Shown one piece after another: positions 30,577 through 64,000 of a stretch of 64,000 nt of DNA. The stretch is from Balanoglossus misakiensis (lineage: Eukaryota > Animalia > Hemichordata): assembly GCA_040954595.2 (NCBI GenBank), contig CM082578.2, positions 11,477,166-11,541,165 of the forward strand. The letters run 5' to 3'. The notes beneath the pieces are model-generated. The model had not been told where the DNA came from, did no database searches, and saw only the letters and a program-made list of their open reading frames with translations. The translations under genes and the position numbers were made by a program. Numbering within the stretch: the stretch's first letter is position 1; every line of letters begins with the position of its first letter.

Positions 30577-33500
30577 ATGAGTGCCGAGCACAGTGGAGAC
30601 GAGGGGGAGCCTCGTGAACCTGAAACAGCCATTGTGCCTGTGGCTCCAAAAGTAGTTTTACAGGAGGAAAATCAAGTGGAAGTCTCTGCAAGTCCTGCTT
30701 TCCAGTGCCTCGATGAGGTAGATCATTTACACACCTTCATACAATAACAAAAGGAAAGAATTTACATCACCATGCCAACTCTTCTAAGACAAAACATATG
30801 TTTGTCTAACTGAAACTCTGGACTTTACAGTTTGAAAAACAAGAGTTCACGTTTTGTCATTTTTGTACTTACTCTAATATCATCAAGCATAATTACTCCA
30901 CTCACTTATTATAATTCTGATCTACCCTCAGCTCTTCAAGGAAGGAAAACTGACTGGTACAAAAGTGGCCCTTTTAAAGGCCAAATACACAGACCTTTAT
31001 AAAACATTAGCAAAGTAAGTAATGTTGATTGATTTTGTTTTCCCTTTTTCTCTGTGCTCATATTAGAATCAGGATTTATAGAAACTGTCCAATCTCATCT
31101 GCCTACATTCTGGACGACATATGGAAACTCCCATAAAGTTCAGATTTCAGAACAGAGATTATGTATGATAAGGATATAATTTCATCTTTTTTGTCCTTTA
31201 TCCACTGAAACCGTATAATGTGTGTTGCTTTGTAGAACACGTGAATCTGAAGCAAGACTTCTGAAAGAGGCGAAAGAGAACACAAGTGAATTGGAGAGAC
31301 AGAGAACAGAGTTGGAGAAAGCTGACAACTTCCCAGAAAGTTCCAACACTGAAGTGACCAAACTCAGGACACAGTTGCTTAAACACAGGAACGAGTTTGA
31401 TGAAACAGAAGAAAGAAATTTTCAATATGATTTCAAAATGGAAAGGTACACCAATGGCTCTTGATTTGATGTGCACTAGTTTAGGATTAGAATTTGATCT
31501 GCTAAATCATAGATATTGGAATTTCTCAAGCGCCTATGATTAAATACATCACAGTTATTTCAATTTACTGTATATCTAGGAAAGATGCAAGTTTCTTGTC
31601 AGTAACATTCTGTACATCTGGTATGACTTACTACATACGATTTCATGTAAATGTTAACTTCATCACATTTCTTATTGTTTTCGTACAGCTTACAAGAAGA
31701 AAAAAGAATGCTGGAGAGAGAATATGCACGCATGCCCAAGAAAGAGGAAATTGACAAGCAGACCAAGGAACTGGAGAAAAATATTGGCGAATTGAGAGTT
31801 GAAATTTCACAGAGACAAGTAGAAGTGAAAAATCTCAATGAGGAATTAGATAACAGGCACAGACAGGTTGATATTGAACTGAAAGATCTGGAAAAGGAAG
31901 TTGAGAAAATGGAAAATTTGAAAGGCGAACTTGTGCAAGTGCAGACTTTACCTGGACAGTACATCAAAGAAATGGACAGAATGAACAAACAAAGAAAGTA
32001 AGAAAATTGATCACTTTTATTATACTGTGTATATTATTGTGAAATGTTTCAGAGAAAACAAAATTGTATGTTGGATAAACTCTATCCTGACCTCTGTGCC
32101 TTGCCCATCCCAACAGTGAAGTTGAGAAGAAGCTGGCTGATCAGACTGAACAGTATACCGACTTGAAATCAGCATTAGAAGATGTGGAGGGCAAGAGAAC
32201 AACGCTGGACGACGACAAGTTCGACATGGACAGTGAACTTGACAAGCAACGGGGCAAAGTTGACGGACAGCAGCGGGAATTTGACGGCCTGATGAAAGAC
32301 TACGAATATGCAAAGGAGAAGGAGGCAGTGTATCAGGGTGACAGGTGAGGCAACAGTGTCTGTGTGTTGGCATTAATTTTGAATTGAACTGCGACAGGGA
32401 AGAAACTTGTTACATTGTCGGTTTGAGGGTTTCAAGATCTCTAAATCATGCTATTACCGTACTCCTCCATATGTAAATTCTGACAACCTGGTTGATTGTC
32501 ATTGCTGATAGTCTGCGAAAATTGGACCTGGGGGTACTATGTTAAACCCGAAAATAAACTGTGTAACGATTTGCAGCTGTTCACGGTTATTCTTGTTTGT
32601 TTTTCAAATGTCACCAATTCCATTTCTGGGCTTAATACGCTTCCTGAGTGCATATATACATTTGTATTCACCATACAGAGCTACCCTAGACCTGAGTCTG
32701 AGACACATCCACCTTGAGAAGAAAAACCAGCATGACCTGCACGCCAGAAAACTCAGGGAGAAAGACAGAGACCTGAGAAATCTCAAGAAAACGGAACTGC
32801 AACTCAAAGTAGCACAGGAGAACCTGGCGCACACGCAGTCGGTGTTCGATAAAGTGAAATCACAGGCTGATGCAGCACCGAAAGATGATTCCTTGCTCGA
32901 CAAGAGAAAAGAATTGCAGAGGGAGGTGGATAACACAAAGAGGATGCTTGCTCAACAGGTGAGGATGTTGTTTTCGTGATTTGATTTTTTTACTGTAAAA
33001 AGAGAGTTAATGTGAGACAAAAAAGAAAAATGTGTTCAAGCTTCAATTTGCATCCATAACTTTGAACAATTAGAACATGACACATTGGTTAACACAAGAC
33101 AAATCTCTGAATATTCATGTGAGAAGAGTGTAACTTTATACTGAAATATTGTTGTCTTTCCGCAACGTAGAACTCACTCACTGCAGTGGAACAGGTCAAA
33201 GTTGAACAGAGCATTGCCGAGGAAGAGAGACTTCTGTATGAGCAAAGTGACTTGAGAATAGAGGTGGTAGAGTTGACGAGATTGGCGGCCATCAAGGCTG
33301 ACGAGAGAGAGCAGAAAGCCCGAGATTTTATGAGGGCTGAATTGAGGTACCACCGAGCGATCGAAGATCTGAAAACTAAAGACTTGGCTATATTAGACAA
33401 TAAGAAGAAATACAAAGAGATGACAGTCAAGTAAGAAAACTTGTTTTGTTGTTGTTGATGTTTTTTGGCTTGTATCTGTTATTGCACAGTTTTGGATTTT

Positions 33501-36228
33501 GTGAAATGCATACCAAGATGTACATGTATCATCTACAGTTACCAGTAGTGCTAACTTTGATTTCAGCACTTTAATGAGCTACTTGGAGGCGTTTGTTGCA
33601 ATGTTTACAAAAAGATTCTGCATCTACATATACATGTAGTATATCACAAATCATCCAGAACAGTCTGTGCTAAGTTCATCTTGTTTATTATCACCAGACT
33701 CAAAGACTTCGCCAAGATGTATGATGTCATCAAGAATGAACGAAACAAGTGTGTGAATCTGATCCAGACCAGCACACAGAAGGCAGCTGAGATGAGAGAA
33801 AAGATCAAGATTCTACAAAACGAAATTGAAATTCTCAGAACGTCCAGCAATGCCAAGGAAAGGTATGGTTGCACACTGTGTCTTAGTGGTGTTTCTGGTC
33901 ATAACTGACTATTAAGGAAGGCATGAAGGAATTCCCATTGAGTACATTTCCTGTGTTTGTAACGATGGGATATTTAAAGGTGAAGGTGGACAGAGATAAG
34001 TTTGTTTTGTTTTTTTGGTCAAAAATGTTTCTCCGGGCTATGTGTTAATTTTTTCCACCACAACAAATTTGTCCTTCACACAGACAATTACAGAAGGCCA
34101 AACTGAAACATGTGAACGCAGTGGTCATCAGAGATCAGCTGAGAAATGAACTTGCCAAACAGCAGAGGATCGAAGCCGAGATGAAGGAGAAACGGGAACA
34201 GCAGAGAATGGACATCAACAAGCTGAACCAGATGATCAACCAGGCCGAGGAGCAGATGGTCAAACTGAGGAAACGATACGAAAAGGCCGTGGAATATCGG
34301 AACGAAAGGTACGTGGTCACTTCATTCAGAAAGTTACATCAACACGTTGCAGTCATTAAGACAGCATCATTCATTGCAAAATCTGTCAGTTTTCAAAGTG
34401 ATGTCAAACTATCAATTAATAGCAAAATTTGAGGGTTTTTCCTGAACGTTTATATCTGAGGCACAATCTAAATACATGGATTTTTTTTTTCAAACTTTCA
34501 CAGGGGTGTGCAACTCATTCTTCGGAACGAGGAAGTCTGCATCTTTTACGAGAGAGTCAACATCCAGGATGATATGATACGGAAGGGCGACGTGGAACTA
34601 CAGGCCAGGGGGGAGGAGATACGCTTCCTCAAGATGCAACTGGGAGAAGAAAAGAGAGCAATTGATCTGCTGAGGAAGAGTTTACCCAACAAGCGAGCTT
34701 TAGACAATGAGCTTGTCACACTTCAAATCCAAGTGAGTTTGATTCAAAATTATTTGATGTTTCACTGCTCAGGAGTGGTCAGAAAAAATATATTGTTATG
34801 TCCACATAGTCACCAAAAATTTTGCATGTTTCAAATCTCATGTGATTGGTTTGTTTTCATCAACCCTTGTGCTAATATATGCTGTGTGTATACTGTTTCA
34901 ATTCCAATTCTGTTGTTGTTCTTTAGCAATAAAGACATAATTTGTTTTTTTCTGTAGCTTGCTCAATGCCAAGATCGAATGGCGGAGCTAGAGAAGGAAC
35001 TTGAGAATCCGTACAACAAACACAGAGTGCGACTACTGGAAGGAAAAGACATGACTCCGAGTGATCTGAACAACAAAATTGAAGAGGTGAGAGCGGTTTT
35101 CTTCACATTTGATTTCAGATTGGCGTTGGATGTAAGCGTGACGGCTGAGCGACTGGTGCAGCTAATGCTCAAATGTCATGCAGCGGAAATGATATTACTA
35201 ACGACAATTTTTTGGTTTTCTGTTGAGAATGTAACCAATGTTGACCCCCTCTCATTGTTTCAAGGGTGTTTAAACATTTGGAGATTATATAATATTTTTT
35301 GTGGTGAAACTTGTAGTGATGATGTTGACTTTCCAGTTGTTCCTTTCACTTACCTTACACTTACCATTTGACCATTTTTTTTTCAACAGCTGGAAGTACG
35401 GTTATCAGAGAAGGAGGAGCAGCTGCTGGAGAAAGACCTGGTCTTTGAGCAAGTGTCCCGGTTATCGGAAAGAGTGCGCAACAAGGCCGAGTCAGGCAAG
35501 CTGGACACCCTGAATCTGGCAAAGAAGGTCAACGAATTCCAGGCCAAAATCAAAGAAATCACCCGCAAGATGATGGCAATTGTGTCGGAACTCTCCATGA
35601 CGCAAGCGCAGACCATGAAACTGCAGCAGGAGACCAAAGAGAGAGAGGCCCTCCTGGAACAGAGCTACATTCGTATGGAGCAAGGCGAGGCGCCCACGGA
35701 GGAGGCCGCCGTCGAATGGGAGAAGATGTTGCGGGACGAGACGCGGCGAGTCCAAGAGGCCGAGTACAGACGCCTGGTAAGTTTTCCATCGTTTTGTTTG
35801 ATGCACACTTTCAAGCAAATTATTGGCATTGAATCAGAACAGACTGGAAAAAGACTGACTCGTTCTAGTCATTGTTAAGTCACTTTACGGCCCGGGCAAA
35901 CATTTTTCTGCAAGTCCAATATACCAAATCTGTACAAAAATCTGCTAAGAACCCCACATTCATGCACACACACAGTATTCCACTGTTACTCACTCACCTT
36001 TGTTCATGTCACGTCGTTTCTCAGGTCGAGGAGGAAGAAGAACAGTACACATTGGCCGGAGGGATCACCACAACGGCTGAGCCGCGACCAAATGCGTACA
36101 TTCCGGACGACGATGCAGAACTTCCTGTGCCAAGACCCTATGGCGTCATGGCACCCTTCAAACCACAAGAAGCAGGCTCCAGCATGAGGCATATCAGGAA
36201 ACCAGTCGTCAAACCCATAGAAATCTAG
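30577..36228 (+). CDS. CCDC146: Coiled-coil domain-containing protein 146 (axonemal, MBO2-like)
   Basis: N-terminus [42 protein letters not shown]. Long coiled coil including [17 protein letters not shown] and [16 protein letters not shown]-terminus [52 protein letters not shown] matches the remembered CCDC146 tail. Confidence 0.92.
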
Positions 36229-37086: not shown

Positions 37087-38308
37087 CGTTGGTGGCGACA
37101 TTAACAAATTTCTATCAGAGGATTCTGTCCTGTATGTCAGAACTGAGTCTCAAAGAATTTTGTTGACCTTCCAAAGGAATCTAGACCAACAGGTGAAGAC
37201 TGTCTAGCAATGTACGCACGTTTCTAATATAAATTTAAATGTCTAGACTTCGCGGTGAACCTGGGCTATTCTGATTGGTCGATTACTCTCCGCTCACATG
37301 AATCGGGTGGACCACAGCGCTTGTGATTGGTCAATACATTCTGGGCTGTTGTAACGTAGAGTCGCCGGACCAAGTTTGTTGACCCGGCCTATAAAGTTTG
37401 TCCGCATCTCTGACCTTTCTCTGACCAACGCAGCAGACGACAAGAAATATTATCTGAGCAAAAAGTCATTCGAGGAACTTTGCTCAACTTTTTTCTCTCG
37501 CGTTTGTGTGCGACAGATTTTAGTTAAAGAATTGTTGGTGGACACTGTCTGAACATAGTTAGTGTGTGATATTTCTAAAGTAGTTTTTTGCCGTACCTGA
37601 CGTTGGTGGCGACATTAAAAAAACTCCTATCACAGAACACCGTGTGTGCATGTCAGACAGAGTCCTAATTTTGTTGACCTTCTGAAAGAACCTTTGAACC
37701 AACAGGTGCAAACTGTCTGGTAATACGAATGAGCGTTTTCAATACATATGTAAATTAAAAAGGTCACTACTTAATTAATTATTCAATGAGGACCAAGTTT
37801 GTTCACCCGGCCTATAAAGTTTGTCCGCATCTCTGACCTTTCTCTGACCAACGCAGCAGACGACAAGAAATATTATCTGAGCAAAAAGTCATTCGAGGAA
37901 CTTTGGTCAACTTTTTTCTCTCGCGTTTGTGTGCGACAGATTTTAGTTAAAAGAATTGTTGGTGGACACTGTCTGAACATAGTTAGTATGTGATATTTCT
38001 AAAGTACTTTTTTGCCGTACATGACGTTGGTGGCGACATTAAAAAAACTCCTATCACAGAACACCGTGTGTGCATGTCAGACAGAGTCCTAATTTTGTTG
38101 ACCTTCTGAAAGAACCTTTGAACCAACAGGTGCAAACTGTCTGGTAATATGAATGAGCGTTTTCAATACATACGTAAATTAAATAGGTCACTACTTAATT
38201 AATTATTCAATGAGGTCACCATTTAATTAAACATTAGTGACGTAAACTAGTACAATTTAATTAGCAAAAGAAGTTATTTGTCATATCCTCCGTTGGTGGC
38301 GACATTAA
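37087..38308. repeat. Composite intergenic repeat: four copies of CGTTGGTGGCGACATTAA plus a recent ~423-bp tandem duplication (37367-37789 / 37790-38215)
   Basis: The 18-mer is identical at 37087, 37601, 38025 and 38291. The two long units differ by only a handful of substitutions and 1-nt indels. Confidence 0.9.
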
Positions 38309-48649: not shown

Positions 48650-51600
48650 ATGTCTTCAAGACAAGTGAAACCAGAAACCTACATCAGGTCAATGCCATTT
48701 GGAATATTTCGGCAGCTGTCTTATATACTGGACCTGCCCAGTCCTCTTCACCGGAACTGGGAGGCTGTAGCATCAGCCGTACCAAGGTCCAGGGGAAGTG
48801 ATCAATTGAAATATTCACCACATCAAATACTGTAAGTTTTTATCAAGCTAATCTTGATGTAATGCTGTGTTTTCTTCTTGGCTGTTGTATTGTAGGATGT
48901 AAAATTGTAAGCTCAGCCTCAGGCGATGTTTTATATGCGTTACATACATCATTAGATTAGAAATTCACAGAATTACATGTTTATTTTTCTCATTTTTGTG
49001 TTTCTAAGTATGTTTCGGCAAGAACTGCAGAGGCCGAACGGAAGCCCAACAATATCTCTGCTACAAGACTGGGGCACCCAGAATGCAACAGCTCAAGATC
49101 TAGTTGATATCTTGTTGAATGTGGAGTTATATTCAGCAGCAGAGATTGTCCTTCCTGGTAAGGAGAACTCATTAAAAAAATATCTTTTCACATTGATTTT
49201 TGTTGTCTGTTACCTGTGTCAGAGTTTGAAATTCTTCAAATATGATAAGACCATTGTAAGTTTTGTTTGAAATTGTAGTTTGATGGCAGTGGAATTAGAA
49301 TTATTTTGTTTTGTTATTTTCTTTAGAGTATACAAGGATTAAGAGACACCAGCAAGAGGAGTCACAGTTGAATGATGGTTACGCAGAACAGCCGACAGAA
49401 AACTACTCATTTCCACCTGATTCGCCTATGTCTGCAGATGATACAGACAGCAATAAAAGCTCACACATACAGGTTGAGAGCTCAAGCCCAGGATCGACCT
49501 CAGGAACTGCCAAAGTGTCGAGTTCAGAAAAAAGCGAAGTTTCTGAACGCATCGAGAGTGATTCTGTGAGTTCGCCAGATGTTGATTCATCACAGGACAG
49601 CCCGCGTCAACTGCAGACCAACCGAGACAGCACTGAAGAGAAGACGCAGGTTGATGACGTTGGCAGCACATCGACGAGAGAGCAGATCAGCGAGTCGGAC
49701 AAGGCCAAGACCAAAGAAGCTGTGGGTGAAGCCCAACAGTCCTTAGAGGAGTCTGTATCGGATGGTGGGTGTTTCGTTAGTTGCAGAGGCCCTCTAGAGG
49801 TGTTCTGGAACACTAGAATTCTTTTGTTTTTTCTCATTCAACTTTCAGCAGGTACTAGTTCAAACTATACACAGCTTACACAGAACTATATATCTAAAAA
49901 GGAATATCAAATGTTAGGCAGAGTTCACTGATATGCATCTCTGAACTTTTTTTAACTCACAGCAAAAGTATTCCCGTATTCGGTGCTGTCCCAAATGACC
50001 AATGATTTCAATGCGCTATCGGCCAGAGAAGGCGGTAACAGAATTGGTGAGGGGTCGTTTGGAGAAGTCTATGTTGGCACACAAGAAGATGGCAAGCGAG
50101 TTGCTGTGAAGAAACTCAAAGAGGTAACGTCTCCCATTGCAGATAAAAGAAACATGATAATGAATTAAAGTACCTGCACTCCACATCTCCACTGGAAACT
50201 GATCCAAATGTTCAATTCCCAGACATTCAAATATCAGTTTTATCACACACAATGACAGACTGTGGCTAAAGAAATTCATATAGGCTATTGCTCTAGTGTT
50301 AAACAACATAAAATAAAAAGCAAGACTATCCATAAAACTATTTATTTAAGGACTTAATATAAATGAAGCTCATACTAACATTTTTTGTAGTTCTGCACGA
50401 CCTTCACTTCACGTTATAATTTACCCTTTTTGTTGTTTGCAGGGCCATACAGACCACTTGAAGAAAATAGTGAACCAGTTCAAGACTGAAGTTGAAGTGC
50501 TGTCAAAGTATGTATGAGAGGTCTTGCAATCTTCACCTGTGTTGGGGTAACTGAATGAGACTGTACCTCTCCCCCAAAGCAATGTGTGATACCCATAACC
50601 GCCCCCGCCATAGCTTTGAAAATCAAGCTGTACTCGACCTACTTCCAAGAGCAACTGAGTCGATGCAAAAAACTGCACACCCACACAAACAGAAGTGAAA
50701 GTCAAAAGGTGAAGATTCTCCAAACATAGTAACTAAAGAACCATCAGTTGCTCACTGATGTCCTTAATCTTTCCATCTGACAGGTACAAACATGAGAACA
50801 TAGTCAACTTTCTGGGCTACTCCTGTGATGGTCATCGATTCTGCTTGGTTTACAAGTACATGCCGAACGGCTCGCTGGAAGACAGGTTGTGCTGCAGAGG
50901 AGGTACACGGCCGCTGGAGTGGACACTGAGGCTGAATATCGCCAGAGATGTAGCACGCGGCATCTGTTACTTGCACAGGCAAAACCTTATCCACCGAGAC
51001 ATAAAGAGGTATGCTGTTTTACAAATAACAACTAATAATGTCATTTACAGTACTGCTGGGTATATTGCATTCTACACCATAGAAAAAAATAGCAATGTTG
51101 TCATATACCACTGTGGTTCTTAGTAACAAAACAAAAATCAGAGATACTTTTGATTACATCACTATGGGTTTTTTTATTTTTCAGTGCCAATGTTCTGCTT
51201 GACGAAGACTTTGTGGCCAAAGTTGCCGATTTTGGACTGGTCCGCTCGGGTCCCACCGATCCTTCCACAAGCGTTGCTTTCACAACCACAGTGTTTGGCA
51301 CGGGACCCTATATGCCGAAGGAGGCATTCCACGGCACCGTTACAACAAAACTGGACACGTACAGCTACGGTGTGGTAAGTCAAGACACAAATATCCCTGG
51401 AAAGAGTACATGTACGTGACATGAGGAGTTCTAGTATTTGTCAAGTATTTTGGTATCGCTGGAAAATATGTATCAGTTACAACTGACATGTATCTGAATA
51501 CAGCTGACAGTGAGCAACATGCAGCATGGTGTATCTTTATTGGTGGAAATACATTTCTATACGTGTGTCCTTGAATTGGTGGGGTTGAACGTATCAATTA

Positions 51601-52280
51601 GAAACATCAATTACTGAAAATACATACTTGTATTATTGAGTAATGTCTATCATGTCGTTTCGTGTCTCAGGTACTGCTGGAAATGATGACTGGCCTGCCG
51701 GTGTACGATGACAACAGAGACAACCGAGATTTGCCATCGCACGTCGAAGATCACTGCGACTCCGATGAGGAATTCCTCAGTATTGTCGACATGAGCCTGC
51801 AGTACGACGAAATCACCATGACCAAACTCTATCAAGTTGCCGCAGCGTGCATCAACAACAATCGGAAAAGAAGGCCAGAGATGTCAGAGGTTTGTATTAC
51901 TTTATATTGTGTTAATGTCTCCCGGAAAAGTCCTGGAATTTTGAATGAGTACAGTACAGTACAGTACAGTACAGTACAGTACAGTACAGAACAGTACAGT
52001 ACAGTACAGCATTCTCACATCATGTATAAAGGCATTTAATGTAAATCCTTTGATGACATAATTTGTGCTGTGTCCCTTAAATGATGTCATCAGTGCAAGC
52101 GCTGTCAACCAATCATTTAGCATGTTCCATATGGTAGAATAACATAACTTGGAGCCAAACTCCTGCTGGGATATTTGTAATTTCTGTAGCTACATGAAGT
52201 GTCGTTGATTGAATTCTGTCTGTGATTTTCCTGTGTTTCAGGTGCTTCCAAAAATAGAGCTGATTGTAGACAGTGAGTGA
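48650..52280 (+). CDS. IRAK4: Interleukin-1 receptor-associated kinase 4-like (death domain + RD kinase)
   Basis: Death domain MSSRQVKPETYIRSMP..SPTISLLQDWGTQNATAQDLVDIL, then a Ser/acidic linker. Kinase: GGNRIGEGSFGEVY..VAVKKL..HENIVNFLGYSCDGHRFCLVY (Tyr gatekeeper)..[62 protein letters not shown]. Stop at 52278-52280; probable non-coding first exon with donor at ~48257. Confidence 0.9.
51948..52009. repeat. (AGTAC)n pentanucleotide microsatellite in the last IRAK4 intron
   Basis: About 12 units with one interruption, read directly. Confidence 0.9.
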
Positions 52281-53920
52281 GTGAGTGACGAATCCGCAGA
52301 GAAAATCATCATGTATGAGAAGACAGCTTTCGGAAAAAGACCAGATTAAATGGCGCCAGGTTTACAAGACTTAAAGGACATTTACAAGAGTAATTCTGCC
52401 GCTCGTGTGAATGCAATCATAGTCTTCTCCACTCAAAAAAAGGACTTTAATGATCGTATATAAAATGTTTTTCAACAGCTACTGATGGAGCAATCAGTGG
52501 AATTTTTAAAAATCATTCCAATTTTTATACAAATTGATAATTATATCACTACTAGAAAAATTAGATGCTATATATTAGGTGCTGTATATATATTGGGGGT
52601 TGACCGTTTTGTGAGATTTTATCATCGACAGTCTGTGTGGTGGATTGGAGAGCCAAAAAAGGTAGTCAATCATTGTTTCAAATGATGTGACTTGATTAAT
52701 GAAAGAATGATGCTTCTTGTCTATCATGGATGCTGGAGTTCTGTCTCAGCAGCTTGGAAAAACATAAGCTTGATCATTGGACAACTCCTCGGCTGGGCCA
52801 TAGGGATTTTGAAATTAGTTTTTATTGTTCAAGTCAGCAAAAAAAGTTAACAGTGAAGAATGAGTTCATACCCTATGCAACTCATGCTGCAATATCAAAT
52901 TAATGTATACAGCTCTATGTGAACATTCAGGGGTATATATGAACATGTTACAGGCCTGGATGAAATCTGTCCAACTTATACATGCAGTTGACATGGGGCT
53001 CTGGTTGAGTGACTGTAATTCTGGGTTAATATTTTATATTAAAAACACCCATTTGAGCAAATTCTCCTAAATTGAGTGAGATGACCTTGCACAGTGAGTT
53101 TTATTTAAAGGAAGACAAAAACATCTTGGGATATGTGTCCATCTTCCTGCAAACTTTTTTGTTATCACTGTTTACAGTGGCAAGGTGATCTTGTTAGCCA
53201 ATTGAACTGGAAGATTAAAGAATCATAAAGTTTGAATTCTCCTTTGTTTATTAAAATATGAACATTGATAATTGTTGTGGCAAGATTCCAACAAATCGCA
53301 CAGACTGCAAATTGCCTTGAAGTACCAATAGGGGGGTCCATCAGAGAAAGAATGTGAAGTTGCGGGCCCATCCCCGACCATGTTAACTGAATGCTTATTT
53401 TTACGCTAGTTGTGCAGTGTCACAACTTTGTTACACTAAAAAAATCACGTCTCATCCATCTCTCGTCAGATAGCCCAGTAAGGGCCCGAAACATTGACTT
53501 CACATTTAAAAAAAATAACCTCTCGGTCGCGGGCCTATGGTGACATCACCAAAAGCCAATAAACCGGGAGATTTGTAACGTGATTGTTTGTGTGTGAGCC
53601 ATCAATCTTTCGGCGCCAATATCCGATGTTTGACACAAATAACCCCGTGGTAAATTCACAACAATATCGCTGGGGTGTATGTATACACATCTCTGTATAC
53701 AAACAGTTTGCCAAATATGATCAAGGGTCTGACCCACGACACACATGTGGTCCTATAAAGGACTGGGTTAAAGTAAACCAAGGGTCACCGAAGACCAATC
53801 TTGGCAAACCTTTCTCAGTGTATAAACTGTCAGTTATCATCTACGTTTTGGCACTTGTCTCTTGTGGAAGAGGGAAGGCCCATCTGATCTCTGGCACTCT
53901 CTGGCAGTTTAGTCGAAATC

Positions 53921-56900
53921 ATGGCGAGCGGTCATCTGGTTTTCCACCTTGCAGTAACGTGCTTTCTTCTCCTGGGATCTGGTGAGTCTCGGTTGTTTAA
54001 AATCAAACAAGCGTCATATACAGTTGAATATATTGGTATTTTTTTCTTGTTGATTGTAAATATGTCAAGATTATTTTAATTTTATTGGTTTCGCGGAGTC
54101 GTATATTATTCATAGTCTGATTTTATTTCATTTGAAAAGTACATAGTGGGAAAGCAAGCGAAAATAATATGGTTCCTTCGAAAGATTCTTTTTCTGAGCC
54201 TGAGCTCAGGTTTGACGTTTGGTCGGTTTTCATTTCCAAACCACTGCAACGATTCCGTTATTTATATGCATATGTTCAAAACATATGTCTAAACCTCGGG
54301 AACTACAGCTGGATAATTTTAACCATATGCGGACTTCTTATCCATGCACAATGCATGCGAGTCTAGAACATGTGATACCGACGGGTTGAAAACAGGTTTC
54401 AAATGCATACTATATCTGCTGATCAATTTTAATGTTATTCGTGTATGTCGTGTATTGCAGCCCCGGTTTAGTAAATACTCATCCGAGCGGATGTACGTAT
54501 TTACATTGTAAATGTAATCGGCCAATGAAATGACGGAATCGCTTTTGCTCGACATCTTGAACTTTATAAAAGTGCGGCTGCAGAATGTTTTTAAACCTTG
54601 GCCGAGAGATATATTGAATGCCAATTTGTTTTTGACATGACCAATGTCAAGCGGATGGAAAGGTTATAGGCTGCTTTGATCTTTGGCCTGATAACCCTGA
54701 CTACAGATGAGAACAAACACTCTTCAGAGGTATCACTTTGGTATTTCAATGATTTTTCACGAGCAACGTTGGCAATATTCGTGAACTTCTCTATTCAGAA
54801 TCACAAGCAAACTAGCAACGTGTTCGTCAAGGCCGTCGGATCCGGCTCCTTGTTCCATCCACAAGCGCTCGCAGTGTTGCTTGGATAGTCTATCGGGGTC
54901 CTTTGGCCGGGAGGGCGAGGCCGAACCTCAGTTAGTATAGCACACGACACACACTCTAGGGTATCGGCTACCGGTAGACTTTCCATGCAAGTAACGCAAC
55001 ACTGCAAGCGTCTGTGGTTCCATTATTAAGGGCACGAGTGCAATTAGGCCTATGGTTTGAAAAAAATATGACCAGTCATCAATCATCACAAAAATCGCGC
55101 CAATGAAATAAAAACAAATCCGTGAGTTCAGTCACGCGATTAGAAACAGACCAAGCAGTTTGACGGATGAGGTATTAAGTTTTATGACTGAAAAGTATGT
55201 AGGGGGTATTCTCGTGTACGTCCTGATGAAAGATTTAAAAAACGTGATGGACAGGACATTGTTTCGTGCATGGTACGACCAACATGATATATGACTGCTT
55301 TTCTGGGTCATCTCTCCGCGAAGTTCGGACAGCTATCCAGCTTGAGGTCCGTCTCAAGTCCACCGCACCAACCAACGTACAAATTCATGTACGTTGAAAA
55401 AAAAGCATGCGCGTAATTTGATTAGGGCAACCTCTTCTTAAATTTTGTTTCTCATCGTGAACTTCTTGGCCGGAAAAGTGGGTCGGTCGGTCGCAAAAAA
55501 ATGAAAAGAAAAGACAAAACTTGATGCATGGACATATTTTGTTATCAAAATCACGGAACCTTTTAAAGTTAAACAATGCAGGGATGCAAGGAAACACAAA
55601 CCGTTAATATATGACATCTTGCGCGCAGAACGACTTCTGAAACCTGCACGCATTCCAAATTTGACCACAGAAGGTGCAATTTGGTTGTGGCCATACCCCT
55701 AAAGTAATGCCAGTTGTCTGGTAAAATAATACGGTGCAGAAAAAAGAAATACAATGATATACAATGCAACGTTCGAAAAGCGTTAATTTTGTTGTTGGCC
55801 ATCTAGTTCATTTGTCGGTTTTATGGTCCGATCGACAGCTTTCTCTGATGGCGACCTGGCTGACAACCCGCCGACTGACGTCACTGTTGAAGTTGTGACT
55901 TTATTCAAAGTGCGACTGACTTGGAATGACCCGTATGTAGATTTGGCACGAGGACCCGTTGTGTACACTATAGAATACCAAGCCGTTTATCCCGAAACGG
56001 CCTGGACAGGGTATGTGGTCTTTTCATCTTTATCAGGTCTGTGACTTCAGGAAACTGCAACGGGCACAGCACATTGTTTTTGCCGCACATTTTCTTCTTC
56101 AACATGTGCTACTTGTGCGACCATATAGACGGACCACTGTACTGGTGGATTGACTGACTACTCTGCAAAGCCTGGTATTTACTGAAAGATAATACAAGTA
56201 TGTCCAAAATAAAACCGAAGCTTCTGTATTGATCTTGGTCCACTGAAGTCAATCGAGAGTCATGGACGTGATTTTCGTCTGCCTGTCTTGTTTCTCTGTC
56301 TTTAGCCACCCGCGTCATTATATTCACCCACCCACCCACCCACCCATCCTTCCATCCATCCATCCATCCATCCATCCATCCATCCATCCATCCATCCACT
56401 AATCCGCTAATCTGACCATAGACTGACTTTGATGTTTTTGAACCTGACTGCAGTGTCAAGTACCACGAGGTTATCGATACACAGGAAACCACCCTCTCGT
56501 ACGGATTATCCCCCTTCACTCGCTATCAGTTTAGAATTCGCAAGAGCGATGATGAAGTAACGGGACCGTATGGCGAGCCCATCTATGCTACTACAGCCGT
56601 CATTGGAGGTAGGTACCTAAAGAGTCAGACATCGGGACGCTGCGTATGCCTTCTTGATCGTATGCCTTCTTGATCACTGAACAAAACTGCCGTGGACACA
56701 TGTTGTTAGAGAGGTCTAGCAATCGCGACTCACGCCCGCTTACCCGATGAAAGGTAATTACAGTAAAAGATGCGAAACTTGCCTCCAGGTTGAACGACGG
56801 GTCCTAACACAACAGATCCGAATAATTCTACTTCTCCTTCTCAGGTCGCAATTCCCCTATACTTAAACCACACGTGGTCAAAGTCGAAGAGGCTGGCAGA

Positions 56901-59900
56901 TCAGAATCGGGAATTGACGTCACAGTCACGTTTAGGTCAGTCAGTGCACGTGGGTTTGAACACACAGGTGAGAAACTGAATATTGTCAGATGAGTGCATT
57001 AAAAGAATTGTAGCTTTAGTTCAAATACTCAAAATTGACTTTGCCGCGTTCTAATCTGTTAGGCACTGAAATAATATCTTATTTTACCCTTCTTAATCTT
57101 TTCAGGGAACTTGGTATTTTATTCTGATGACTCGACTTCTCCCGACCACCTGTCTTGGCCAGTCGTTCGTGTGGACGACACGGAAAACCAGTCGCCGCTT
57201 ATCCGTGGACTGCAACCAGGGTCACGCTATGTATTCGTCGTCCAAAACTTCAACATGAGAGGAGCCGGGCCTCTGTCTGACCGACTGTACTATGACGTAC
57301 CGCCAATGCAAATGCCAGTAGAGTTGATCGGTATCTAAGAATTTAAGTTCCTGTCAAATTCATTGTCGTGCGGAATATGTTTCCGACGAGGTGGGGAGGG
57401 AAGGAGAGAGGGAGGGAGATGGGGAGGGAAGGAGCGAAGGGGTGGGATTTGGTGGATCGGTGGATGAAGCGGCTTGGATATGTCTGGATAGATTGGTGCA
57501 TGTATTGAGTAGATGATTGGATATTAATATAGTGTGCGTGTATTTCAGATTGTTTTTGAACTTCAATTACATGTATTCTTGTTTGTATCATCCTATGACA
57601 ACTACAGAGCCACCAGAAGCTTTGCCTCCAATCAAGGCTCCCTCCGGATTATCTGTCTCTTCTGGCAGTGAATCAGGCAGTGTTAACGTGCGATTTGAAC
57701 CACTGGAACTTGGGAACATCGAAGGTGGGTGTTCATTGATCGTCGCGGGGAAATGCGAAAGCAAAACAAATCTAGATGCGCGAATTGCCCTTTCACCAAA
57801 CATGACGTTTGTACTTGAGCGCACAAATGTAGAAAATTGTCAAAACCCGCTGCCATGTATGGCGCGTTCTATCTATCTGCAAATTGATTACTTTTCCGAC
57901 AGCGTACATCGTGACCTACGGAGACGACAGGGGCAGCCTACCGTCAACAATAATGATGGCCAGTACAGCGAATCCCTCCATAACCATAAGAGATCTGGTC
58001 CCACGTGCCACGTATAGCTTCAGCGTCAAGGCGATGAACAGATACGGTCATGGACCCGAATCCGCCACAGCCACATTCTCCGTTCCCCCAGGTAGGTTAA
58101 TAGTGAAATTTTACCATTGACATGTTTACTTTGCTTGAAGTTCCCTCTCACATATTTTCTGTAATAAAGTTTTCAAAATCTTCACGTTACTGGAAATTGG
58201 GAGTCAGTTGGTAGTCTTACGTTGTTTATATCTAACCATAGACAGTAAATCTACGGCCTATGATCTAACACACCTGATCTGTAAACTGCAGTCTATGCTT
58301 AGTATGGGGACCAGTATGCGCCACGCGAAGTACTGCGCATTTTATTTGACATACCTCACAAATCAACATATTAAAGAGAACGTGTTTTGTGTTTTTTTTC
58401 ATCAGAAAGTGCGCCACCGGCACCTAGATCTGGAATCTGTCCCTCCATGGACAGTTATCGAAGTTGTCTAGATGAATGTCACGTGGCCACAGATTGTTCC
58501 AATGGCAAGATCTGTTGCTACAACGGATGCGGACGAAATTGCGTTTACCCAGTCGATACCCGGCAACCGGGTAAGAATGGACCTTTAACCTCTCCCCCCC
58601 CCCCTCTTTGCCATCCCCAGTGTAATATCAGACTGCAAATCTTCGCTTTCCGATCCACCAAAGCAGGCGTCAGTTGTCACGGTCTACACAATTAAAGAAG
58701 AATCACACTGCCTCGCACGGCAATCTTCATTTAAGTGACATAGTTACTAACGTTTAGCATGTTGGGCACTCAGGCTGATGATTTTCATTTCTCTTGCCGA
58801 GTGAGTGCGCATGTAACAGGCTCCGATATATCACTTTCATTCCTTCTATCACTTTTAGAAAATGTATCACAAAAATGCAGCCTTATACGAACTTACAGCA
58901 ATCATTTCAATCGTGTTAAAGTCATGCTCAGCAAACCTAACACTATGTAACTCGTGCATCTCTGATCTTTGCGAAAGAACCCATACACGGGGCAGCTTGC
59001 CCGCAATTGCAGCCACCGGCACACGGGAGCGTCCGTTGTTCTAACGGCAACAAAATCAACTCGGTGTGCTATTACATCTGTGACCCCCGGTACATAGTAG
59101 ACGGAAGCAGCTCCCGTACCTGCAGCGGTGAACTTAAGTGGTCTGGAAGTGATTCGGTCTGCACGCCAGGTCAGGATTGCTGAAAAAGCAACCATTGCCA
59201 TCTTTGCTTGTTTTTCAGAAACAGGTGCACAGTCAACTGCTAGCATGATAAAAGTAAAAGGAAAGCTTGGAGAAGCTGAGACAAGAAATGTCAGAGTAGT
59301 TGAACAACTAAGCCCTAAACACCTATTTTTTTCTGCAAATCTTTTCACGTTAAAGCTTCGTTACTTCTGGTTGTTTTTATGGATTTTTTTTTCTGCCTGT
59401 CAACTTGTTTTTCGAATCCCTAAAGCACGCACATAAGGTGAAATGCCCAGTAAGCTTATTTTATCAACAAAGCCAATGTGTATATATACAGTATTGATAT
59501 TGCTAATAACATTTGAATTCAAGTCCTGACATGAATTAATTTACCTTCGATAACCGTACAGACTATGTTGACCGTCTGTCTATCTCGGGATTTATTTTAC
59601 CCTGTTACCAATAGGTCTCAACCTCAAAATAGGTAAAAACTCGCTTTCTTGATGAAAATGAAAAAATGATAACCGCACACACTTTTTTATATATTTACCA
59701 CATTTCTTCTTTGAATAAAGTTAATCAGCGTGGACCTCCGTCATCACCTCCGCTTAACCTGCTGGTGACAGTGCAAAGCCCAACAACAGCTCTTGTTAGT
59801 TGGACCCCTCCAGAAGGTTACGTTTCCCGTAAGTCTCATTTCCAGTCGTTTTCTGAACATTTCTGTCTTCTCGTCTTGGTTTGCATTCGAATTCTTAATC

Positions 59901-62385
59901 TCAAAAGTTATTTTTTTCCTTTGACAACGATATGAGGACGCTTGATTGTGTTTTCGTCGCAGGTTACGTCATTCACTATGCTTCTGCCTCCGATCTGAGC
60001 CAAGACCAATGGTCTTCCGTTCACGTTTCCGGCGAAAGCGTGCAGTACCAAGTAACGAATCTGACACCCAACTCTGTGTATTATGTCAAGATGCAAGCCA
60101 GCAACGAGTATGGCCAGAGTCCAATGTCAAATCTGGTCATTTTTAACACTGGAGGTAATGCGAGATATTGTTGGGTTCAAAGGGACAGTTCAGACAACTG
60201 TACAGGTGCATCAGAAATCGATACTTAGAGCAGATTTTGGTATAGTTAGGCCTAAATACTAGTAGTTCATTAACGCTTGGCCTATACACGTTATTGGGAT
60301 CCCTGAGCCACAACGAAAACGCACAGCGTCAAATTAAGACGTTCAACAATTTGCCATTTTGTAATAGTTACACTTTAAAGGCATTTCGATTGTTTTGCTA
60401 CGTTGTCCGTAATTTAATTCTGCGTCTCGCTGGCAATGAATGGCCGTCATCATTATGAAGATACGAGGCACAGACAAACGCACTAATTATTCACACATGC
60501 ATGCATGCATTTTATATCCATTGCCCAGAAACCACTTCGCAAATGTGCGATGCTCCGAACGCTCCAGAGAACGGTGGCGTTCGTTGCGAGGGAGACAACA
60601 CAGTAGGTACTACCTGTCACTTCACCTGCAACGAAGGGTTTAGGCCTACTTCGGATGATGGTTTAGTCATCAGATGTACAGATGGAGGCAGGTGGGATGG
60701 ACCTGTTCCAGAATGTGCGCAACCCGAAGGTATGATTGATAACGGTTTTTACAGTATGGTGGAATACTGGTGTGATATATCTGCAGTTACGTACATGCAT
60801 GTGCCGACGTATGTACTGTCAGGTAGGGTGTAAAGCGTTGCTGAGTTGGCCTATCTCCATGTAATAACCATCTAGAGTTCGAGACAGGTTTAGATGAATC
60901 ACACTACTATACCGCTTGTTTGTTCCAGAAACCATCTATGCTGGATGTTACGTCTTCCCAAATCCCGCGATGAATCGCCGTATGGAGAATTACAAGCCAA
61001 TCCAAGGCAGAATATTGGTATCTCAAAAGGTAACGATTGTCGTAGCAGTGTCGGTGTAGATTGTGCATATGATAATATAGGCTGCATTTGTCAAGTCGAC
61101 TACAATGATACCCCCAGTTTTTTTTTTAGAAAGCTGAGTACAGTTCTCTTTGGTTGACCTATACGTTATTTTTTATTTTTCTGGCTCTCTCTTTCCTCTT
61201 GTTTGGTATCAAAAGCAGTTCCCACCCTCCCGATAGGTACTTTAAAGTCAACATTTCCTTTGCATTGTGACTCAAACGAGTGTACGCTCTGCCGGAATCA
61301 TACAGGTGCGACACGAGGCTTGTTTTGGGCACAGGAAAACCAAACTTGGTAATTCCTCATCAATTTAATCATTACCTAGGGATATACCAATATGCCAAGG
61401 CAGCTATGCTAAGCCCAACTTAAATTTGTTTTCCTATCTGGAGTGGTGGCAAGATGAGATCCGATCCCGATATGATATAACAGCAATAACCTGACTTGGT
61501 AACATTTCAACCCAAAGGAATCCGAAGAGCAAATTGATGTCGTTCTGAACCTGGTCGGGTTTGAGGCCAATTCTACCCACGGCTTCCACGTTCACCAGTA
61601 CGGCTACATAGACGTCAGACGGGGGTGCAGCGCCACCGGTGGCCATTACAACCCCCATGGGAAAGTACACGGCGCTCCTGGAGACGAAGAAAGGTATTAC
61701 TATATTGTTAGTCCTGTGTCATTCACTGCTAAAATGTTCAGAAGACATTGGCCATTTATTTAGCACTGCAGTCAATCATTCTATTCAATAGAATTCATGT
61801 GATATATTTTGTGCATTCTGGAGAAGGATCGTTTGTCGTTAGTACTTACTTTCTCTGAAACGATCACTACCACCACCTCTGAACACTGCATTATCATCAC
61901 TGTAAATGAAGACCACAAACGAACACATGAAGCCATTTCTGATGCCCTCCTCCCTCTCTCTTAAAATCTTAGACACGTTGGTGATTTCGGTAATATCCAA
62001 AGTGACGAGAATGGAAGGGTCAGACTGACCATTTCAGATCACGTAGCCTCTCTCGTAGGCGAGTACTCAATCATTGGACGAGCCTTTGTTGTAAGTAAAT
62101 TTACAAAAATATATTTATATTGAATAACAAAATAATTCCAAAGACGAAACGCGTCGATATATAGATGCTTTTCCGTACCGATTCTCAGTGTGATTGAACT
62201 TCGCCAACGACTGTTCGTTCTAACTGATAGTAATCACTGTTAACTCTGCGTTGAATACTTTTCTCTCCTAGATTCATGCTGGAATAGACGATCTTGGACG
62301 AGGCGGTGACGAAGGCAGTCTTGCCACCGGGAACGCCGGTGCCCGCCTTGCCTGCTGTACCATCGGCCGTGTGCCTAAGCCGTAG
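53921..62385 (+). CDS. Secreted multidomain protein SP-FN3x3-WAP-CCP-FN3-CCP-Cu/Zn superoxide dismutase, ~800 aa
   Basis: 16 phase-compatible GT-AG exons: 53921-53981, 55839-56010, 56454-56608, 56845-56967, 57106-57330, 57608-57724, 57903-58091, 58406-58570 (WAP), 58978-59169 (CCP), 59721-59828, 59963-60154, 60529-60729 (CCP), 60929-61029, 61518-61693, 61973-62090, 62272-62385. SOD part: [80 protein letters not shown]. Confidence 0.85.
56325..56398. repeat. (CCCA)n/(CCAT)n tetranucleotide microsatellite, intronic
   Basis: Read directly. It explains the WMDG-repeat antisense ORF. Confidence 0.9.
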
Positions 62386-63769
62386 AAACTCGGCCATCAT
62401 GGCTGGAAATCGCCGATTTCGGCACTGGACAATTATAGTACACTTCAGATTGTTCACAATATGTAGTTTATTTCAAGCGTATGCATGCCTCAAACGTGCC
62501 TGACTTGCGGAATGTATTTTGCATGATATACCGATGCTGGCTGTCAGGGATTTCACGTACTGTATTGATGACGAAACCGTCTACAGTTATTAAAGAGACA
62601 CTTTACTCAACACAAACAGCAGTTATTTACTTGACTAACATCTAGTGAGACATGAAATAGCACAACATCTCTAGTAGAAGGATTGTGAGATGAGGATTAT
62701 GGTATAGGTCGATCTCAGTATTCCCAGGCATACCCTGTCCCAGGCCTGCAGTATCCCCTGAAATTCGACGATTTTCCAACCTGCGCTATAAAAGTAAAAC
62801 GCAAGAAGTGATATGTGTATTGTATTGTATTTCTTTTTGTCGTACATGTACTGGATTGTTGTCAGATACCGCGACAGGTTGGTAAAAATATGACCCCCCC
62901 TTCACCGCATTGATAAAATCTAACCCTTTGTCGAGATATGCTTGTTTCTAATCTGAATTGTTTATTTGCTTGTTTATCAGCGTCTTTCACAATATTGATC
63001 ACGTACACATTCAGTTTATTGAACAGATTGGGCGATACACATGGTACATGTTTTGTAACCTTCCCACCAAGCCACAGACACCAAGCCTTCCCTCTCCATG
63101 GAGGTACTAGCCATACCTCTCCACACCCTCCCCTATTTCTCTGGTTCATCCATCCCTCATTCCTCTCAGCGGGGAAGCGCCACTCTGGGCGGGGAAATCA
63201 AGCCTTTATACGGTCACCTGTATGTAAATTCAGTGGTCGAATATAAGCTGTAGTCGCTTTGCTCAATTTTGAAATCATAAAGTTTGTTGAATGTGTTTGA
63301 ACCCATAGAAAAACCATTGGCGAAAAAATGCAGATTTTTTTTGCGTCCTTAATCTGTTCAATTATATTATGTGCACAATGTGGCAAATTCTTTGAAAGTT
63401 CAGAATGAGTTTACATGTACTTCAGACAAATGAATGGGTGTGTGGAGTGACCGTGGTTGGCCGAGAATCCAACTTTACCGTGCCTCCTCTTCACGGCTGT
63501 ATCGCTTAGTATGCAAAACGCCTATGCTGCAACCACAAAATTAGCATATAATCAAGTTTGTCTGAAAAGATCGCTTATCGACCCCCTGGCCATAAATAAA
63601 CAACCCATGACCCCAGATACTTAAGAGAATCAGATAGCAAGGGTAAAGTCAGCAGATCACGGTAGGCGAACTCAACACCGGTTCTCTACAAAACAACTCG
63701 TCCTTCTGAAATCTGCGTGTAACCCAAGGCTGTGCCCAACAGTGGCTGTGAAAGTATCGACGAACCAAG

Positions 63770-63827
63770 ATGGAGCGCTTTGCTATTCTCGTAGTAGCAT
63801 GCGTGTTCTTCACTTCGTGTGCTACAG
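63770..63827 (+). CDS. Probable first coding exon (signal peptide) of a downstream secreted or membrane protein, truncated by the window end
   Basis: AAGATGG start context, translation MERFAILVVACVFFTSCAT(G), then a consensus donor CAG|GTAAGT in phase 1. Confidence 0.6.
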
Positions 63828-64000
63828 GTAAGTTTCTCTGGGGAATAATCATTTGCAGAAATCACGGCGCGTCTACCGCACAGGTACAGATTGGGGTTTC
63901 GGTGCGTAGTCTCGGTTGCCGGTTATAATCCTTACAAAAGTGTGGCTTTCTGTCTGTGCATGATGCATCCTCGCCAAATTTATGTCTGTAGGTTTTGCGC

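What the first reader, a model, noticed from the sequence alone, without database searches (positions are those of the whole stretch)
53921..62385. Extracellular Cu/Zn SOD fused to an FN3/WAP/sushi scaffold: candidate undescribed multidomain redox-defence protein
Seen: one open spliced frame runs from a signal peptide ([23 protein letters not shown]) through three FN3 domains, an 8-Cys WAP ([35 protein letters not shown]), a CCP, a fourth FN3 and a second CCP into a full SOD domain. Only a 199-nt phase-1 intron (60730-60928) separates CCP2 from the SOD exons, and I see no separate start or signal exon there. Known: animal SOD1/SOD3 are essentially single-domain; WAP domains are often protease inhibitors or antimicrobial; CCP and FN3 are extracellular binding modules. 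Inference: a matrix-, mucus- or pathogen-tethered enzyme that couples superoxide dismutation (local H2O2 production) to protease inhibition or recognition. The SOD exons are missing from the supplied ORF track in their coding frame, so the fusion is easy to overlook.
Basis: partly seen in the sequence, partly recalled or inferred. Interest (0 to 1): 0.9.

Follow-up and report, generated by a model that had tools for sequence, protein, structure and literature searches.

The report
Acorn-worm tethered multidomain superoxide dismutase
One spliced reading frame joins seven extracellular modules to an intact copper/zinc superoxide dismutase domain, a layout also predicted in two acorn-worm genomes; it likely makes a secreted antioxidant enzyme that is likely held in matrix or mucus, and no paper describing it was found.

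Summary
Sixteen exons (53921-62385, +), all with GT-AG introns, give one open 802-residue frame: signal peptide, FN3x3, WAP, sushi, FN3, sushi, Cu/Zn SOD. All metal ligands, the catalytic Arg and both cysteine pairs are present. The fusion is not unique to this window. RefSeq models from Ptychodera flava (FN3x4-WAP-sushi-SOD, 'uncharacterized') and Saccoglossus kowalevskii (FN3x3-WAP-sushi-FN3-WAP-SOD, 'mesocentin-like') share the core and the SOD junction. This is most likely an acorn-worm gene family whose middle modules have been shuffled through phase-1 exons. The WAP has 8/3 cysteine spacing, not the 6/8 of elafin/SLPI antiproteases, so protease inhibition is unlikely. SODs with added extracellular modules also occur in other organisms. 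Best reading: a secreted SOD that lacks the vertebrate basic tail and likely uses its N-terminal modules as a tether. The ligand, tissue and activity are untested, and no transcript of this gene was examined. I found no paper on it. Verdict: new variant of a known kind, interest 0.45.

The parts
53754..53826 (+). two TATA-box matches (53754, 53821) upstream of the start codon; candidate promoter
   Evidence: consensus match only
53921..53981 (+). exon 1, signal peptide, phase-1 donor
   Evidence: hydropathy 2.87; no SignalP available
55839..56010 (+). exon 2, FN3-a first half (phase 1 to 2)
56454..56608 (+). exon 3, FN3-a second half
56845..56967 (+). exon 4, FN3-b first half
   Evidence: no Pfam hit alone
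57106..57330 (+). exon 5, FN3-b second half; FN3-b is 85% identical to P. flava
57608..57724 (+). exon 6, FN3-c first half
   Evidence: no Pfam hit alone
57903..58091 (+). exon 7, FN3-c second half
   Evidence: E 1.1e-07
58406..58570 (+). exon 8, WAP domain, 8 Cys, spacing 8-3-5-5-0-3-3
58978..59169 (+). exon 9, sushi/CCP 1 (6 Cys)
59721..59828 (+). exon 10, FN3-d first half
59963..60154 (+). exon 11, FN3-d second half
   Evidence: E 1.6e-06
60529..60729 (+). exon 12, sushi/CCP 2 (6 Cys)
60730..60928 (+). 199-nt phase-1 intron at the fusion point; holds a possible alternative in-frame donor at 60823
60929..61029 (+). exon 13, SOD first strands with the extra N-terminal Cys (C640)
61518..61693 (+). 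exon 14, SOD: H691, H693, C704, H710, H718
61973..62090 (+). exon 15, SOD: H727, D730
62272..62385 (+). exon 16, SOD: H767, R790, C793, C794, stop; no basic tail
62589..62594 (+). first poly(A)-signal match after the stop
   Evidence: consensus match only

Best explanation
This is one 16-exon reading frame joining four FN3, one WAP and two sushi modules to a Cu/Zn SOD domain with a complete active site, and it likely encodes a secreted acorn-worm enzyme whose modules likely tether it in extracellular matrix or mucus, where it would turn superoxide into hydrogen peroxide. Shown: the open spliced frame, the domains, the conserved ligands, no transmembrane segment, no basic tail, and the same kind of fusion in gene models from two acorn-worm families. 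Inferred: expression as one mRNA, secretion, catalytic activity and tethering. The N-terminal modules would do the localising job that the heparin-binding tail does in vertebrate SOD3 (recalled), but by protein or glycan binding rather than charge. FN3-b is the best candidate binding site. The gene likely arose when a SOD3-like exon block starting at a phase-1 boundary was joined to an FN3/WAP/sushi scaffold before Ptychoderidae and Harrimaniidae split.
For: Open frame with GT-AG introns. Domains. Four Cu and four Zn ligand positions (one shared bridging His), Arg and four Cys are identical in the window, P. flava and S. kowalevskii. The SOD part of the P. flava paralogue folds at block pLDDT 89-98 and matches Cu/Zn SODs at TM about 0.95. 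Fusions in XP_070559063-065 and XP_070559036 (P. flava) and XP_002739501, XP_077869406 (S. kowalevskii); the two species belong to different families. In all three species the SOD begins with the same short motif, also seen in the stand-alone Saccoglossus SOD. Whole-length BLAST to the Saccoglossus model: 39% over 832 columns. The window's SOD groups with P. flava (SH-aLRT 91) in a clade with Saccoglossus (99) (quick tree). Introns 3-12 are all phase 1, matching the module gains and losses between species. FN3-b is 85% identical to P. flava, above the SOD domain's 69%. No hydrophobic segment after the signal peptide; C-terminus not polybasic.
Against: All support for the junction comes from genomic sequence and other species' predicted models; that RefSeq models rest on RNA-seq is recalled, not seen. 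The models are unstable: the two Saccoglossus versions join different SOD exons, and a P. flava tandem copy is split into two models. No ligand is known. Every module is acidic or near neutral (net charge -6 to +1), so there is no obvious heparin-binding patch. FN3-b conservation falls to 46-48% against Saccoglossus, below the SOD domain's 61-64%. The full-length fold was too poor to show contacts (pLDDT 49.5). A freely soluble body-fluid protein is not excluded.
Confidence: 0.6

Rival explanations
1. The protein is a peroxide supplier for acorn-worm chemical defence: held in epidermal mucus, it would feed H2O2 to haloperoxidases or the peroxidase-type luciferase that make or use brominated aromatics.
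For: The fusion was seen only in acorn worms among the proteins fetched. Enteropneusts hold bromophenols, bromoindoles and bromoquinones with proposed roles in deterrence and bioluminescence (PMC6315191 passages). A reference title names Balanoglossid luciferase a peroxidase (seen only in the reference list of PMC8944799).
Against: No sequence link to a peroxidase: none of the neighbouring frames I scanned matched one. Whether the worms make the haloorganics themselves is open. The taxonomic restriction rests on incomplete searches.
Confidence: 0.12
2. The protein is an immune effector: WAP, sushi or FN3 modules bind microbes or wounds and deliver local H2O2. The first reader adds protease inhibition.
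For: WAP proteins can act in host defence without antiprotease activity (PMC1459147 passage). Kunitz- and C-lectin-SOD proteins exist elsewhere. An IRAK-like death-domain kinase gene lies directly upstream. Variable module number suits a recognition protein.
Against: WAP spacing is 8/3, not the antiprotease 6/8. The WAP has net charge 0, unlike cationic antimicrobial WAPs (recalled). Neighbourhood in an animal genome is weak evidence.
Confidence: 0.14
3. The protein is an anosmin-like matrix signalling modulator: WAP plus FN3 would bind growth-factor or receptor complexes, and the SOD would set a local redox signal in development or regeneration.
For: The best PDB match of the WAP is anosmin-1, E 8e-4, with the same spacing from C2 on. 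Atlas look-alikes of FN3-b include DSCAM, Sidekick and SORL FN3 clusters.
Against: Domain order differs from anosmin (recalled layout), there is no basic FN3, and the FN3 look-alikes are generic.
Confidence: 0.08
4. Two adjacent genes, an FN3/WAP/sushi gene and a stand-alone extracellular SOD, are joined only by gene prediction.
For: Saccoglossus has a stand-alone signal-peptide SOD-SOD model whose exons a later model merges into the fusion. Intron 12 has ATGs and an in-frame donor.
Against: Only 199 nt separate the parts, with no TATA box, poly(A) signal or hydrophobic start. Reading through the donor adds no domain and stops after 33 codons. The join recurs in three species with different upstream modules.
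Confidence: 0.06

Closest known systems
Ptychodera flava XP_070559063-065 (uncharacterized) and tandem copy XP_070559035/036
   Same: Signal, FN3-a/b/c, WAP, sushi, SOD; domain identities 63, 85, 45, 63, 48, 69%
   Different: Has a duplicated FN3-c and lacks the FN3-d/sushi-2 block; sushi joins SOD directly. A predicted model with no functional name.
Saccoglossus kowalevskii XP_002739501.1 'mesocentin-like' / XP_077869406.1 (LOC100371640)
   Same: FN3x3-WAP-sushi-FN3-X-SOD; 39% over the whole length, SOD 64%
   Different: X is a second WAP, not a second sushi; the newer model carries two SOD domains. The name does not mention SOD.
Vertebrate extracellular SOD3 (PDB 2jlp)
   Same: Signal peptide, same fold (TM 0.87 by target, 38% identity for the P. 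flava paralogue), an extra cysteine pair and an N-glycosylation site (SOD3 features recalled)
   Different: No polybasic C-terminal tail; about 610 residues of FN3/WAP/sushi precede the SOD. SOD3 is paraphyletic across animals (PMC9524095).
Other SOD fusions: Kunitz-SOD, kringle-SOD, C-lectin-SOD (Corticium), thyroglobulin-SOD, TSP1-SOD; Rsod
   Same: Cu/Zn SOD domain joined to extracellular modules; Rsod is often secreted
   Different: Different modules; the four with a row in the tree (Kunitz, kringle, lectin, thyroglobulin) fall outside the acorn-worm clade, which suggests separate origins. Rsod has 2-6 SOD repeats.
Anosmin-1 (PDB 1zlg)
   Same: Secreted WAP plus four FN3 (layout recalled); best PDB match for the WAP
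   Different: WAP precedes the FN3s, no sushi, no SOD, basic heparin-binding FN3s (recalled).

Membership tests
Cu/Zn superoxide dismutase (PF00080) | Sod_Cu domain and beta-barrel fold | tested here: met
   (fold tested on the P. flava paralogue, 71% identical)
Cu/Zn superoxide dismutase (PF00080) | four Cu His, Zn ligands His/His/His/Asp, catalytic Arg, intrasubunit disulfide Cys | tested here: met
   H691, H693, H710, H767; H710, H718, H727, D730; R790; C704, C793 (roles by alignment to SOD1 and recalled numbering)
Cu/Zn superoxide dismutase (PF00080) | superoxide dismutase activity, metal loading, dimer | not testable with these tools
   needs protein
Extracellular SOD3 type | N-terminal signal peptide, no transmembrane segment | tested here: met
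   hydropathy only
Extracellular SOD3 type | extra N-terminal Cys and C-terminal CC motif (feature recalled) | tested here: met
   C640 and C794 conserved in three species; groups with 35 of 38 other CC-motif rows; the bond itself was not measured
Vertebrate SOD3 in the strict sense | polybasic C-terminal heparin-binding tail (feature recalled) | tested here: not met
   protein ends a few residues after the CC motif in 3 of 3 species
Vertebrate SOD3 in the strict sense | orthology to human SOD3 | not tested
   no vertebrate SOD3 row was in the tree
Rsod / SOD-repeat proteins | 2-6 SOD domains per chain | tested here: not met
   one SOD domain; definition from PMC9524095
Elafin/SLPI-type antiprotease WFDC | C1-C2 and C2-C3 spacing of 6 and 8 | tested here: not met
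   8 and 3 in 4 of 4 WAP domains; criterion from PMC11408880
Anosmin (KAL1) | WAP followed by four FN3, no enzyme domain (layout recalled) | tested here: not met
   order is FN3x3-WAP-sushi-FN3-sushi-SOD
Acorn-worm FN3/WAP/sushi-SOD family (undescribed) | signal-FN3a-FN3b-FN3c-WAP-sushi core plus a terminal SOD from one clade | tested here: met

The most novel reading that the evidence does not exclude
Acorn worms evolved a dedicated, splice-variable, mucus-anchored peroxide generator. A conserved FN3 pair docks the SOD onto a partner such as a haloperoxidase or peroxidase-type luciferase complex, making it the missing H2O2 source for their brominated chemical defence and light emission.
Probability: 0.1. 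Interest if true: 0.8.

Novelty: new variant of a known kind. Interest (0 to 1): 0.45.

Why it matters
It shows a second way to localise extracellular superoxide dismutation: a seven-module scaffold instead of a basic tail, kept across two acorn-worm families while its middle modules were shuffled. The database names ('uncharacterized', 'mesocentin-like') hide the SOD, so surveys of redox genes can miss it. It gives a concrete gene with which to test where extracellular H2O2 comes from in animals known for brominated defences and peroxidase-type luminescence. The chemistry is ordinary and SOD fusions recur elsewhere, so interest is moderate.

Tried and rejected
No whole genome was held, so synteny and paralogues beyond the window are unchecked. 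The run search over the whole gene listed no RNA holder; this says nothing on expression, and no reads were laid. The search of 50%-cluster representatives listed 150 of 10846 hits and contained neither acorn-worm protein, so it cannot show absence elsewhere. The profile search with alignment A1 returned 5 proteins and missed P0001, itself in the query. A metagenome scan with the N-terminal part found 126 pattern matches, none confirmed. The full-length AlphaFold model was unusable, pLDDT 49.5. ESM Atlas gave only generic FN3 clusters; best whole-protein score 0.75. An attempt to see human SOD3 among the top 60 PDB sequence hits failed; it appeared at rank 46 by fold. The careful tree did not finish; the quick tree is used. 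One search checked the bridging His one position off; corrected. Three look-ups of earlier findings were empty. No complex was predicted: a SOD homodimer would pass by likeness to solved structures and no other partner is known. Rejected: protease inhibitor, Rsod, anosmin orthologue, separate SOD gene.
Full report
Observation. The window is eukaryotic DNA. Splicing 16 exons between 53921 and 62385 (+) gives 2409 nt, 802 residues and one terminal stop; 15 of 15 introns are GT-AG with phases 1,2,1,1,1,1,1,1,1,1,1,1,0,2,0. Pfam hit 12 of 15 exons scanned singly: fn3 on six half-domain exons, WAP on exon 8, sushi on 9 and 12, Sod_Cu on 14-16; exons 4, 6 and 13 had no hit. Exons are richer in GC than introns (0.52 against 0.40). 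The intron before the SOD is 199 nt and phase 1. Of 83 ATG-to-phase-1-donor combinations over 52100-64000, 15 were hydrophobic; only exon 1 and one at 63770 pair that with a strong consensus donor, and none lies in introns 9-12.

Relatives. Exon 5 found one protein among 31 candidates: P. flava XP_070559064.1, 742 residues, 84% identical over the match. A search with its SOD domain among proteins of 408-1299 residues gave 342 hits; 2 of the 120 listed carry FN3/WAP/sushi, this one and S. kowalevskii XP_002739501.1. Of 277 proteins scanned with my own HMMs, 212 had a SOD domain and 7 had SOD plus FN3, WAP or sushi: the window model, four P. flava models and two S. kowalevskii models. Layouts: window FN3x3-WAP-sushi-FN3-sushi-SOD; P. 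flava FN3x4-WAP-sushi-SOD; S. kowalevskii FN3x3-WAP-sushi-FN3-WAP-SOD, with two SODs in the newer model. The species belong to Ptychoderidae and Harrimaniidae. The window's organism is inferred to be an acorn worm closer to Ptychodera. Restriction to acorn worms is not shown, because two searches missed known members.

Reliability of the fusion. It rests on genomic sequence and predicted models. For: three species keep a SOD at the end of the same core, starting at the same motif, with different modules just upstream. P. flava isoform X3 lacks 64 residues, the size of one half-FN3 exon (63 residues for exon 7 here). Against: the two Saccoglossus models join different SOD exons, a stand-alone signal-SOD-SOD model exists there, and a P. 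flava tandem copy is split in two. I put the single-gene reading above 0.9.

The SOD domain. All Cu and Zn ligands, the catalytic Arg and the disulfide cysteines are present and identical in the three species (roles from the SOD1 alignment and recalled numbering). An extra N-terminal Cys and a CC motif match the SOD3 pattern (recalled). The P. flava paralogue folds confidently over its SOD part and matches Cu/Zn SODs at TM about 0.95, human SOD3 at 0.87. In a quick tree of 154 SOD domains (158 hits over 130 bits, 4 short ones dropped) the window groups with P. flava (91) in an 11-row clade (99) with Saccoglossus and one unnamed protein, P0191, which I labelled by similarity only. That clade lies on a 46-row side (91) with 35 of the 38 other CC-motif rows; no vertebrate SOD3 was included.

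The scaffold. There is no transmembrane segment, RGD or basic tail; modules have net charge -6 to +1. FN3-b is 85% identical to P. flava, above the SOD's 69%, but 46% to Saccoglossus. All 4 WAP domains have 8/3 spacing; the antiprotease pattern is 6/8 (PMC11408880, one passage; PMC1459147, one passage). Of 7 PDB matches at E up to 1, the best is anosmin-1. The full-length fold was too poor to use.

Mechanism. Shown: anatomy and conservation. Inferred: secretion, activity and tethering. The simplest account is an extracellular SOD localised by its N-terminal modules in matrix or mucus, removing superoxide and releasing H2O2 (0.60). Rivals: immune effector (0.14), peroxide supply to halogenation or luminescence (0.12), anosmin-like signalling modulator (0.08), prediction artefact (0.06). 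For the second I saw passages of PMC6315191 and two reference titles in PMC8944799, nothing more.

Literature. Ten searches of the open library listed no paper on this protein; I saw titles and abstract starts, and some searches listed only part of their hits (16 of 18, 25 of 42, 30 of 34). PMC11721785 (passages) describes Sod3 as a SOD domain plus signal peptide and does not mention sushi or fibronectin. PMC9524095 (passages) reports extra domains on 10 Cu/Zn SODs from 7 species and calls SOD3 paraphyletic; its five supplements hold none of six search terms for these modules or Saccoglossus. Supplements of PMC11721785 were not read and may list these sequences. Subscription journals were not searched.

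Verdict. A real, conserved and apparently undescribed architecture built from ordinary parts, already present in RefSeq under uninformative names. New variant of a known kind; interest 0.45.

Noticed in passing
window 48700-52000 (+): Multi-exon gene with a death domain and a protein kinase domain, IRAK/Pelle-like by layout (family name recalled), ending about 1.9 kb upstream of the SOD gene.
   Followed up: partly
window 63770-63827 (+): Signal-peptide exon with a strong phase-1 donor, likely the start of the next gene. It could be a tandem stand-alone SOD like Saccoglossus XP_002739488.1, but the window ends first.
   Followed up: partly
window 32500-35900 (+): Coiled-coil exons with a weak CFAP58 hit (E 4.7e-06), probably a ciliary coiled-coil gene.
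   Followed up: partly
window 23438-23983 (+): C2-domain exon, E 4.3e-17.
   Followed up: no
window 60823: In-frame phase-1 donor inside intron 12; its use would add 31 residues between sushi 2 and SOD.
   Followed up: partly
window 56325-56400: Tetranucleotide microsatellite in intron 2.
   Followed up: no
window 37355-37990: Two near-identical open stretches about 435 nt apart, suggesting a local duplication.
   Followed up: no
proteins P0009, P0025, P0043, P0061, P0066, P0081: Other SOD fusions with Kunitz, kringle, thyroglobulin, C-lectin or TSP1 modules, and His-rich long SODs (P0045, P0077): a recurring theme that may merit its own survey.
   Followed up: partly
proteins P0090, P0134-P0140 and related rows: A large clade of metagenomic proteins of 400-1250 residues with one eukaryote-like SOD domain inside unrelated sequence, many from ENA/JGI contigs.
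   Followed up: no
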